DNA of 6,650 bases from the IMG/VR virus record IMGVR_UViG_3300029248_000131, one strand, 5' to 3'. The notes under the pieces were generated by a model, which saw only the letters and a list, made by a program, of their open reading frames with translations, did not search any database and was not told the origin of the DNA. Both the position numbers and the translations under genes were made by a program. The DNA comes from a virus (taxonomy: Duplodnaviria; Heunggongvirae; Uroviricota; Caudoviricetes). The number at the start of each line of letters is the position of its first letter. Position 1 is the stretch's first letter. This document shows, in pieces, positions 1,252 through 2,088 of this stretch.

Positions 1252-1425
1252 TTATCCGAGGCTTACTGGCTTTACACCTTTCTTCGGCCCGACCATATCC
1301 ATGTCTTTTTCCTTCTGACCAACTTTGGCAAGTTTGTTGCCGTCGATGGAAGCCCAGAAGTCGAGAGAGCGTCTTGCACTAGCCATAGCTTTATCAGAAG
1401 TGATTTTTTTATGTTGTTTGATCAT
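1252..1425 (-). CDS. Small lysine-rich hypothetical protein (57 aa)
   Basis: Minus-strand ATG (1425-1423) preceded by AAGAGG (rev-comp of 1432-1437) at 6-nt spacing; 57 codons to TAA (1254-1252): MIKQHKKITSDKAMASARRSLDFWASIDGNKLAKVGQKEKDMDMVGPKKGVKPVSLG. Below the ORF-track length cutoff. No family recognised. Confidence 0.45.
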   Translation of the reverse strand: MIKQHKKITSDKAMASARRSLDFWASIDGNKLAKVGQKEKDMDMVGPKKGVKPVSLG

Positions 1426-1515
1426 GGTTAACCTCTTTGGCTATAGACTTTACGGATAATTTTATAACAAATGCGTTCATTAAACAAACAGCCCATCGAC
1501 TGCTGATTGAGATTG

Positions 1516-2088
1516 TCATTCTTCAACTGGGTCAATGCCATTCACTTTCCGTCGTATGGTGTCGAGGATGTCGTGCACATCTGCAGACATCTTACTGTGG
1601 TCATGCCATACTTGGGCAAATCCGTAGCTCCTGTAACGCGGTTGTGCATCTTCAGTAGGATCTTGAATATAAACGTCGTCAAGCTCCGCGATCTGGCAGA
1701 AGGTAGTCGCGTAAATAAGTGCGATGATCAACACATTGCCTGTTAGGTCGGTATCCTCATCTGAAATGAAGTTTTCTAACATGCAAATTGAGAATTGCTC
1801 ACGGCGCCAGTCGTATTTACAAATGATAACCGCATGAAGCTGTTCGGGCTCATCACGGTCGATCAGCTTTAACGTTATATCCAGTATTCCATCTACAGCG
1901 TCACCGCGATAGGTCTGCATCGCCCATCGCCAGTCCAAGTGGCTTTGTAAACTTGCATCTTCAAGCTGGCGTCTCTCTTCATCGCTCAAAACGCCTACAG
2001 AGATATTAGTCCATCCAAGTGATTCAATAGCTTTTTGTGTTGTTGCTAGACATTGATCATGTATTTGCTGAGTAGATAGGAAGCTCAC
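1516..2088 (-). CDS. Hypothetical acidic protein (190 aa), GTG start
   Basis: ORF-track minus-strand ORF. Initiates at GTG (2088-2086) with AAGGA 9 nt upstream; the first in-frame ATG is about 56 codons in. The + strand ORFs overlapping it (1437-1658, 1507-1746) look like antisense artefacts. A perfect TATAAT (rev-comp of 2122-2127) lies about 35 nt upstream of the start. No family recognised by eye. Confidence 0.55.
   Translation of the reverse strand: MSFLSTQQIHDQCLATTQKAIESLGWTNISVGVLSDEERRQLEDASLQSHLDWRWAMQTYRGDAVDGILDITLKLIDRDEPEQLHAVIICKYDWRREQFSICMLENFISDEDTDLTGNVLIIALIYATTFCQIAELDDVYIQDPTEDAQPRYRSYGFAQVWHDHSKMSADVHDILDTIRRKVNGIDPVEE

What the first reader, a model, noticed from the sequence alone, without database searches (positions are those of the whole stretch)
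1252..2088. Unrecognised minus-strand gene pair (190-aa acidic protein and 57-aa basic protein) next to the att site
Two co-oriented genes with their own RBSs lie between the att fragment and the acyltransferase. The small one was missed by the ORF track; the large one starts at GTG. An acidic protein followed by a small Lys-rich protein and then a hairpin terminator, placed at an element edge, is the position where fitness, conversion or immunity genes are usually carried. I could not match either to a known family.
Basis: partly seen in the sequence, partly recalled or inferred. Interest (0 to 1): 0.5.

Follow-up and report, generated by a model that had tools for sequence, protein, structure and literature searches.

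The report
GNAT-fold enzyme plus small partner cassette
The two minus-strand ORFs are real genes: an unrecognised GNAT-fold (acetyltransferase-like) protein and a 57-aa partner that always accompanies it, carried as a self-contained cargo cassette at the tRNA-Thr end of a prophage and most likely acting as a toxin-antitoxin-like or defence-type pair, which has not been tested.

Summary
Both ORFs (190 aa, 1516-2088; 57 aa, 1252-1425, minus strand) are conserved, purifying-selected genes (dN/dS about 0.1-0.3).

- **Pairing.** The small ORF lies directly downstream of the large one in every one of 29 distinct loci checked, including relatives at the limit of HMM detection.
- **Small protein.** It is two helices with disordered basic tails. 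Its net charge is anticorrelated with the GNAT's (rho -0.76), which suggests the two bind.
- **Cassette.** It spans about 1201-2157 and has a promoter before each gene, a GTG start on the enzyme, a strong SD on the partner and a conserved terminator.
- **Location.** The cassette fills a cargo hotspot between conserved phage flanks, 375 bp from a 46-nt thrW fragment (att). It is found in 2 of 5,426 E. coli genomes. Elsewhere it occurs as a chromosomal islet, next to integrases, on plasmids, and beside type I R-M and CBASS.

Function is inferred, not shown. My best guess is a GNAT effector restrained by a small partner. It is not a TacAT- or TopAI-type member. Interest is moderate.

The parts
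1516..2088 (-). 190-aa acidic GNAT-fold protein, GTG start
1252..1425 (-). 57-aa basic partner protein
   Evidence: The ORF is. It has 31 homologues. It is present downstream in all loci examined. The AF2 model shows two helices (10-26, 29-42) with disordered tails, pLDDT 68.6. Invariant residues include F23, W24, D28, G29, G46, P47 and K49.
2089..2157 (-). Upstream control region of the cassette: P1 -10 hexamer TATAAT at 2122-2127 and SD AAGGA at 2098-2102
   Evidence: The sequence is. A sigma70-like site lies 32-39 nt before the start codon in about 14 of 23 loci, for example TTAACA-17-TATGAT. Nucleotide homology with plasmid and phage copies ends at 2129-2157. This is a consensus match only; no transcript data exist.
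1426..1515 (-). 90-nt spacer with internal promoter P2 (-35 TTGTTT 1482-1487, -10 TAAAAT 1459-1464) and SD GAGG 1432-1435
   Evidence: In 20 of 23 loci the best sigma70 match has exactly 17-nt spacing and ends 30-35 nt before the small ORF's ATG, while the rest of the spacer diverges. The spacer has no significant RNA structure (z = 0.04).
1204..1230 (.). Terminator hairpin ending the cassette (12-bp stem, 3-nt loop)
   Evidence: Folding gives -18.9 kcal/mol with z = -5.4 on the minus strand, and -23.3 kcal/mol with z = -5.4 on the plus strand, where it is followed by a T-run. The AAGGCTCC...GGAGCCTT stem is conserved, with T-runs on the operon strand in other genera.
1044..2294 (.). Whole cargo segment that fills the prophage hotspot
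   Evidence: It is 96.9% identical over 1,251 bp to a Klebsiella chromosomal segment. It is flanked by phage-conserved sequence on both sides.
935..1070 (.). Left conserved phage flank of the hotspot
   Evidence: It matches phi458 (downstream of its pin invertase) and lambda-like Lambda_2E9. Each of these carries a different gene in between.
2292..2460 (.). Right conserved phage flank, the last stretch of the prophage before att
   Evidence: It is 90-92% identical to phi458 and Lambda_2E9. Many E. coli satellite-adjacent matches begin at 2296-2300.
2461..2506 (+). thrW (tRNA-Thr) 3' fragment: attR of the prophage and attL of the adjacent P4-type-integrase element
   Evidence: It aligns to the last 46 nt of the annotated tRNA-Thr in strain SCU-104. 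KSC1031 homology ends at 2508 and satellite homology starts at 2461. ARAGORN finds no complete tRNA.

Best explanation
The pair is a self-contained two-gene cassette of about 1 kb. Its order is promoter P1, a GNAT-fold acyl/acetyltransferase-like enzyme with a weak GTG start, internal promoter P2 with a strong SD, a 57-aa partner, and a terminator. A thrW-integrated prophage picked it up as cargo (a moron) at its att-proximal hotspot.

Proposed mechanism:
- The acidic GNAT protein is the effector and acylates a basic target.
- The small basic, largely disordered partner binds it. The likely contact is the conserved FW helix plus the Gly-Pro-Lys tail, acting as inhibitor or pseudosubstrate.
- The partner is made in excess from its own promoter.
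- The pair therefore behaves like a toxin-antitoxin / effector-immunity module, of the kind that stabilises mobile elements or aborts phage infection.

Shown: both genes are real, the pairing is obligate, the fold is GNAT, and the cassette boundaries and hotspot location are defined. Inferred: the two proteins bind each other (charge covariation). Speculative: the enzyme is harmful when unrestrained, and its target.
For: - **Conserved residues.** E105 in strand beta4 and Y152 four residues before G156-F157 are conserved through the family, and equivalent E-[NS]-F and Y-x-x-F-G-F motifs occur in remote members.
- **Pairing.** The pair is kept in 29 of 29 distinct loci, down to relatives found only at HMM E = 1e-4 to 1e-10.
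- **Charge covariation.** Net charges of the two proteins are anticorrelated (Spearman -0.76, n = 29). Two separate lineages have a near-neutral enzyme with an acidic partner.
- **Partner structure.** The partner is helical with disordered tails, pTM 0.33, so it probably folds on binding.
- **Expression asymmetry.** The enzyme has a GTG start in 14 of 23 loci. The partner has its own conserved promoter in 20 of 23 loci and a GGAGG SD.
- **Patchy, mobile distribution.**
  - Present in 2 of 5,426 E. coli genomes.
  - On 10 plasmids and in 4 phage records.
  - Next to integrases.
  - Between int and xis of phage mEp460.
  - Between type I R-M and CBASS on a Klebsiella IncF plasmid.
  - Beside hsdM/hsdR or hsdS in Acerihabitans and Sodalis, and near an AAA_21 ATPase.
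- **Precedent.** GNAT-domain cassettes have been reported to confer phage defence (bioRxiv 10.1101/2024.07.02.601719).
Against: - There is no functional data, and no complex model could be made.
- The pair matches no PADLOC model and no TA-related Pfam family.
- The gene order, the 90-nt spacer and the separate promoters are unlike known GNAT TA operons.
- The enzyme is acidic, so a tRNA target like that of TacT or AtaT is unlikely.
- The AcCoA-loop motif is degenerate (D-L-T-G-N-V), so activity is unproven.
- In Klebsiella, Pantoea and Kluyvera the pair sits at fixed sites among housekeeping genes. That fits an ordinary physiological role equally well.
- The charge correlation is not corrected for phylogeny.
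Confidence: 0.42

Rival explanations
1. The pair is an ordinary accessory enzyme with a dedicated small substrate or regulator. The GNAT acetylates the partner (its Lys-rich tail or N-terminus) or a metabolite, in a stress or metabolic role. The prophage copy is merely hitch-hiking chromosomal DNA.
For: The E. coli cargo is 96.9% identical to a Klebsiella chromosomal segment lying between a glutamine amidotransferase gene and AraC regulator genes. The pair sits at fixed positions among housekeeping genes in Pantoea (near Mn-catalase, DUF892 and KGG stress genes) and Kluyvera (pspF/MFS). The G-P-K-K tail is conserved.
Against: The flanking genes differ in almost every genus. The pair recurs on phages, plasmids and integrase islands and beside R-M and CBASS systems. 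Its taxonomic spread is very narrow and patchy, with 29 cluster representatives among 1.84 billion.
Confidence: 0.25
2. The roles are reversed. The small basic protein is the harmful component, and the GNAT neutralises it by binding or by acetylating it, as in TopAI/YjhQ or a type VII (enzyme-antitoxin) TA system.
For: There is precedent for a small toxin with a GNAT antitoxin: YjhX is 85 aa and YjhQ 181 aa (PMC4666372; YjhQ is a Pfam GNAT). The charges are complementary. Catalytic amounts of an enzyme antitoxin would fit the weak GTG start.
Against: The partner has only two helices and long disordered tails, with no fold of its own. It has its own promoter and a strong SD, which would be odd for a toxin. 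It shows no relation to YjhX or YjhQ (hhalign probability 0.2-0.3%). Some remote partners are acidic.
Confidence: 0.12
3. The pair is a counter-defence gene set of mobile elements. The GNAT acetylates and disables a host or rival immune protein, as the anti-CRISPR acetyltransferase AcrVA5 does (my knowledge), and the small protein is a cofactor or regulator.
For: In one MGE (L045) the pair lies between a replication-initiator gene and genes for a large ParB_N protein and ArdC anti-restriction. In mEp460 it lies between int and xis. It is on a putative phage-plasmid beside rdgC and dam.
Against: Many copies are fixed chromosomal islets with no mobile element nearby. The obligate small partner is unexplained. 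Adjacency to R-M and CBASS on a plasmid fits defence islands better.
Confidence: 0.1

Closest known systems
GNAT/DUF1778 type II toxin-antitoxin systems (TacAT, AtaRT, KacAT, ItaRT)
   Same: Both are two-gene modules with a GNAT-fold enzyme of about 170-190 aa and a small partner. TacT3, TacT2, AtaT and 7byy are among the best structural matches. Both occur on mobile elements and as chromosomal islets. Both have a Tyr at the usual catalytic position.
   Different: There is no sequence match to Pfam GNAT families or to DUF1778. The partner is downstream rather than upstream, separated by about 90 nt with its own promoter. The partner has no RHH fold. The enzyme is strongly acidic, so aminoacyl-tRNA is an unlikely target.
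TopAI (YjhX) / YjhQ of E. coli
   Same: Both pair a small protein with a GNAT protein of about 180 aa in a TA-like module (PMC4666372).
   Different: The gene order is opposite. YjhX matches PF09857 and YjhQ matches Acetyltransf_1, whereas neither protein here does. hhalign finds no relation.
Prophage morons / cargo hotspots next to att (for example mcrA after pin in e14, or O-antigen conversion genes beside attP of thrW-integrating Shigella phages; my knowledge)
   Same: The cassette has its own promoter and terminator and sits between conserved phage flanks that hold other genes in related phages. It is directly next to att and beside an O-antigen-type acyltransferase gene.
   Different: The cargo itself is an uncharacterised pair, and the same cassette also lives outside phages.
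Single-gene GNAT-domain integron cassettes reported as phage-defence genes (Brc113, BrcP; bioRxiv 10.1101/2024.07.02.601719)
   Same: Both are small mobile cassettes encoding a GNAT-domain protein with a conflict-related role.
   Different: Those are single genes with a recognisable GNAT domain in integrons. I made no sequence comparison with them.

Membership tests
GNAT (Gcn5-related N-acetyltransferase) superfamily | Mixed alpha/beta GNAT fold (beta1-alpha1-alpha2-beta2-4-alpha3-beta5-alpha4-beta6) | tested here: met
GNAT (Gcn5-related N-acetyltransferase) superfamily | Sequence match to a GNAT profile (Pfam Acetyltransf_1/7/9/10 and others) | tested here: not met
   No Pfam or NCBIfam hit at E <= 1 for the window protein, and none for 10 remote relatives at E <= 5. 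No PDB sequence hit at E <= 10.
GNAT (Gcn5-related N-acetyltransferase) superfamily | Pyrophosphate-binding loop Q/R-x-x-G-x-G/A between beta4 and alpha3 | tested here: inconclusive
   The loop reads D-L-T-G-N-V. L115 and G117 are invariant, and the second G/A position is V or I. Binding uses backbone amides, so this neither proves nor excludes CoA binding.
GNAT (Gcn5-related N-acetyltransferase) superfamily | General base/acid residues (Glu in beta4, Tyr at the start of alpha4) | tested here: inconclusive
   E105 and Y152 are conserved, also in remote members (E-S/N-F; Y-x-x-F-G-F). I judged their equivalence to catalytic residues from motif spacing, not from a superposition.
GNAT/DUF1778 type II TA (TacAT/AtaRT/KacAT) | Antitoxin with an RHH / DUF1778 domain | tested here: not met
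   No Pfam hit at E <= 1 and no PDB sequence hit. The model shows two helices and no N-terminal strand.
GNAT/DUF1778 type II TA (TacAT/AtaRT/KacAT) | Antitoxin gene upstream of, and contiguous with, the toxin gene in one operon | tested here: not met
   The small gene is downstream. The spacer is 80-95 nt in most loci and contains a conserved promoter-like site.
GNAT/DUF1778 type II TA (TacAT/AtaRT/KacAT) | Toxin acetylates aminoacyl-tRNA, and growth arrest is relieved by the partner | not testable with these tools
   Only a proxy is available. The enzyme has net charge -19 and pI 4.46, which argues against tRNA binding.
TopAI (YjhX)/YjhQ TA | Small protein belongs to PF09857 and the partner is a canonical Pfam GNAT | tested here: not met
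   K-12 YjhX hits PF09857 (E = 2.5e-37) and YjhQ hits Acetyltransf_1 (E = 4.8e-12). The window proteins hit neither. hhalign probabilities are 0.3% and 0.2%.
Prophage moron / hotspot cargo | Inserted between sequences conserved in related phages that carry other genes there | tested here: met
   Flanks 935-1070 and 2292-2508 are shared with phi458 and Lambda_2E9. These hold a 379-aa and a 256-aa hypothetical gene there instead.
Prophage moron / hotspot cargo | Own promoter and terminator, independent of phage operons | tested here: met
   A TATAAT lies 33 nt before the GTG, and P2 is conserved. The terminator hairpin has z = -5.4. These are sequence-level matches only.
Catalogued anti-phage defence systems (PADLOC-DB 2.0) | Match to a model of a known or candidate defence protein | tested here: not met
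   No hit for either protein or for four remote relatives of the large protein and two of their small partners.

The most novel reading that the evidence does not exclude
This is a new family of GNAT-based effector/partner modules, confined to Enterobacterales and Vibrio. An acidic acyltransferase that modifies a basic protein target (not tRNA) is held in check by a small, labile, separately transcribed pseudosubstrate protein. On that reading it would be a new TA or abortive-infection defence type, with reversed gene order and a new antitoxin fold.
Probability: 0.3. Interest if true: 0.65.

Novelty: new variant of a known kind. Interest (0 to 1): 0.45.

Why it matters
GNAT toxins are known in essentially one architecture: an RHH/DUF1778 antitoxin gene first, and aminoacyl-tRNA as the target. 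A second, sequence-invisible GNAT family with an obligate small partner would widen that picture. This one has a different gene order and independent partner transcription, and it probably targets a protein. It would also add a candidate to the list of small defence or addiction cassettes carried at prophage ends.

Even if the function proves mundane, the analysis puts a family annotated everywhere as 'hypothetical protein' into a fold class. It also gives it a testable partner, conserved catalytic-position residues and defined cassette boundaries.

Tried and rejected
- **Profile libraries.** Pfam, NCBIfam, PADLOC and PHROGs scans of both proteins gave nothing except PHROG 4350, of unknown function, for the large one.
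- **PDB by sequence.** Profile searches with both alignments gave no hits at E <= 10.
- **AFDB fold search.** The library was not available.
- **SOS regulation.** umuD', umuC, SRAP and dinI recur nearby, so I looked for a LexA box. There is none near the pair.
- **Structured RNA or terminator in the 90-nt spacer.** Not supported: z = 0.04. The terminator-like hit is therefore weak.
- **Relation to TopAI/YjhQ.** Rejected.
- **Literature.** Searches for the accessions, the PHROG id and GNAT-plus-small-protein defence or TA systems found no description of this family.
- **Whether the pair belongs to the P4-type-integrase element.** Rejected. KSC1031 has the pair and the att fragment without that element, and the element's homology in other strains starts at the thrW fragment.

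Full report
**1. What is in the window**

The window joins two mobile elements at a tRNA-Thr attachment site.

The right part is an element with a P4-type integrase:
- integrase at 2673-3887 (Arm-DNA-bind_3, Phage_int_M and Phage_integrase domains)
- a weak int-alpA RNA match
- a 251-aa coiled-coil protein
- AlpA
- an AntA antirepressor
- a YlcI/YnfO protein

The left 2.5 kb is the end of a different prophage. In E. coli E41 and KSC1031 it follows sheath, baseplate and tail-fibre genes. In order it contains an acyltransferase-family gene (window 1-471, minus strand), a frameshifted S24/UmuD'-type pseudogene (661-872), and the two ORFs of the finding.

Window 2461-2506 aligns to the last 46 nt of the tRNA-Thr gene next to proA in strain SCU-104. 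ARAGORN finds no whole tRNA. KSC1031 is 99.96% identical to window 1-2508, after which it continues into the chromosomal LysR-pseudogene/paoD region, with no integrase element. The pair therefore belongs to the upstream prophage. It lies 375 bp from that prophage's attR core.

**2.

Both ORFs are at the stated coordinates and are annotated in RefSeq.

- The 190-aa protein has 68 homologues across Enterobacterales with conserved length, down to 46% identity.
- The 57-aa protein has 31 homologues.
- Against genera where synonymous sites are saturated (pS 0.6-0.97), nonsynonymous divergence is only 0.18-0.40. Where dS can be estimated, dN/dS is 0.12-0.26 for either gene against the distant genera, so both are under purifying selection.
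- pI is 4.46 for the large protein and 10.08 for the small one.
- The terminal hairpin at 1204-1230 is highly significant (z = -5.4). It recurs with compensatory stem changes and T-runs in other genera.

**3. The pairing is obligate**

A co-oriented small ORF lies directly downstream of the large gene in every locus I examined:
- all 21 species-representative genomes found by a genome scan
- Pantoea, Kluyvera and Klebsiella contigs
- four remote relatives detectable only with the family profile, at E = 3e-35 to 3e-4
- phage mEp460, as gp23/gp24
- a Klebsiella IncF plasmid

The partners of remote pairs keep the general plan: a helix, often with an F-W motif, followed by a G-P or basic tail.

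The wider family is small. It has 29 cluster representatives among 1.84 billion proteins. All are from Enterobacterales or Vibrio, and all are annotated 'hypothetical'.

**4. What the proteins are**

Sequence methods find nothing for the large protein apart from PHROG 4350, which has no known function.

Viral GNATs also match.

The conserved positions fit an active enzyme. There is a Glu at the end of strand beta4 (C-M-L-E105-N), an L-T-G117-N loop before helix alpha3, D143-P144 after beta5, and Y152 four residues before G156-F157. Remote members have equivalent motifs. I read Y152 and E105 as the usual GNAT acid/base positions from motif spacing only. The CoA loop is degenerate, so activity is plausible but unproven.

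The small protein models as two helices (10-26, 29-42) with disordered termini, at low confidence (pLDDT 68.6, pTM 0.33). It looks like a protein that folds on a partner.

**5. Evidence that the two proteins interact**

Across 29 distinct pairs, the net charge of the enzyme (0 to -28) and of the partner (+9 to -7) are anticorrelated (Spearman -0.76). Two separate lineages, Atlantibacter and a Pantoea clade, combine a near-neutral enzyme with an acidic partner. The test is not phylogenetically corrected, so I treat it as support and not proof. A direct complex prediction was not possible.

**6. Cassette anatomy**

Nucleotide homology with copies in unrelated contexts (Enterobacter plasmids and IMG/VR phage contigs) runs from about 1201 to 2129-2157. 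The mobile unit therefore runs from the terminator to about 65 bp upstream of the GTG.

*Before the enzyme gene.* A sigma70-like site lies 32-39 nt upstream in about 14 of 23 loci. In the window it has a perfect TATAAT at 2122-2127 but a poor -35.

*In the 80-95-nt spacer.* The best promoter match has exactly 17-nt spacing and ends 30-35 nt before the partner's ATG in 20 of 23 loci. In the window it reads TTGTTT-17-TAAAAT at 1487-1459. The surrounding spacer sequence diverges. The spacer shows no significant RNA structure.

*Translation signals.* The enzyme starts with GTG in 14 of 23 loci. The partner has ATG and a GGAGG-type SD.

The design points to low enzyme output and high, partly independent partner output.

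**7. Where the cassette lives**

In the window, segment 1044-2294 exactly fills the gap between two stretches conserved in other phages (935-1070 and 2292-2508). Phi458 has a 379-aa hypothetical gene there, after its pin invertase. Lambda-like Lambda_2E9 has a 256-aa hypothetical gene there, before its integrase. This is a cargo-exchange hotspot next to attP.

The same 1,251 bp is 96.9% identical to a Klebsiella chromosomal segment, where the pair sits at a fixed site between a glutamine-amidotransferase gene and AraC regulator genes. Only 2 of 5,426 complete E. coli genomes carry it, both porcine isolates.

Elsewhere the flanking genes differ by genus:
- **Housekeeping neighbours:** Kluyvera (pspF/MFS), Erwinia (crr/sensor kinase), Atlantibacter, Kosakonia.
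- **A umuC-like gene and stress genes:** Pantoea.
- **Integrases:** Chimaeribacter, a 77-kb IMG/VR contig and a Pantoea island.
- **IS fragments and an SF1 helicase:** Proteus.
- **hsdM/hsdR or hsdS:** Acerihabitans and Sodalis.
- **An AAA_21 ATPase:** a second Acerihabitans.
- **SRAP and a Y-family polymerase:** an Enterobacter plasmid.
- **ParB_N and ArdC:** one mobile element.
- **Type I R-M and CBASS:** a Klebsiella IncF plasmid.

This mixture of solitary islets, element edges and defence islands is typical of TA modules and small defence systems. It is not proof of either.

**8. Interpretation**

I commit to an effector/partner module, at overall confidence about 0.42. In this model a GNAT enzyme modifies a basic target, and a small, abundant, probably labile partner binds and restrains it or competes with its substrate. 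The prophage carries the module as a moron.

My confidence in the separate steps differs:

| Step | Confidence |
|---|---|
| Both genes are real and the pairing is conserved | > 0.95 |
| The large protein has a GNAT fold | about 0.9 |
| The two proteins bind each other | about 0.65 |
| The enzyme is harmful when unrestrained, or the module is defensive | about 0.4 |

The rivals are:
- an ordinary enzyme with a dedicated substrate or regulator (0.25)
- reversed roles, as in TopAI/YjhQ or a type VII TA (0.12)
- a counter-defence acetyltransferase (0.10)

The pair is not a member of the TacAT/AtaRT family. It has no DUF1778/RHH partner, the gene order is opposite, and the enzyme is acidic. It is not a member of TopAI/YjhQ either. 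It resembles both only in the general logic of a GNAT plus a small partner.

**9. Verdict**

It is an uncharacterised GNAT-fold family with an obligate small partner, packaged as a mobile cassette at a prophage cargo hotspot beside a thrW att fragment.

It is a new variant of a known kind, not a new category. Its function is untested. Interest is moderate (0.45). It is a clean, cheap candidate for a toxicity, defence and pull-down experiment.

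Noticed in passing
window 3931-3991 (+) and 3886-3905 (-): There is an int-alpA RNA motif match between the integrase and the next gene, just below Rfam's gathering score (33.8 vs 35.8 bits). A LexA-box-like sequence, TACTGTATACTCAACCAGTC (3 mismatches), overlaps the integrase stop.
   Followed up: no
window 661-872 (+); L005 4276-5547; L054 1-1139 and 4183-4860; L053 2251-2499: SOS-type genes recur beside the pair in unrelated contexts: a UmuD' pseudogene in the window, a umuC-like gene in Pantoea, SRAP plus a Y-family polymerase on an Enterobacter plasmid, and DinI in mEp460. 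No LexA box was found near the pair in the window.
   Followed up: partly
window 1047-1199 (+): A convergent 50-aa ORF (...WGKVTYAKQQLSKEKSEFGNGKPL) lies just beyond the terminator. It is inside the 1044-2294 segment shared with the Klebsiella chromosome, and its 3' half is shared with Buttiauxella. It has no Pfam hit and could be a gene remnant or a third small gene.
   Followed up: partly
L053 4728-4901, L045 4704-4868, L052 840-1022, L047 4681-4839, L017-L023 partner ORFs: Many partner proteins end in a basic run followed by Ala (RRRKAA, RVRKVAA, KQREAA, PKAA, AKYA, ARFA). This resembles ClpX C-terminal recognition motifs (my knowledge). The window's copy ends in VSLG instead.
   Followed up: no
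window 935-1070 and 2292-2508; L003 4248-5387; L002 4461-5231: The att-proximal hotspot holds different uncharacterised cargo in phage phi458 (379 aa) and in lambda-like Lambda_2E9 (256 aa, next to sitABCD). Neither has a significant Pfam or PADLOC hit.
   Followed up: partly
L015 5050-5580 (-) and L024 5502-5939 (+): An unknown 145-176-aa protein is conserved just upstream of the pair in Buttiauxella and Leclercia. It has no Pfam family, and its orientation differs between the two.
   Followed up: no
window 2509-6650: The right part of the window is an element with a P4-type integrase, AlpA, AntA and YlcI/YnfO, inserted in tandem at the prophage's thrW attR. Some part of the window matches 5,242 of 5,426 E. 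coli genomes, and the listed best matches all cover this element, often directly next to thrW.
   Followed up: partly
L055 4980-5765: A longer (261-aa) member of the GNAT-like family, with an acidic C-terminal extension and its own 54-aa partner, sits between type I R-M and CBASS on Klebsiella plasmid pKLZT-2. Its cluster occurs on 146 contigs in Klebsiella and Raoultella.
   Followed up: partly
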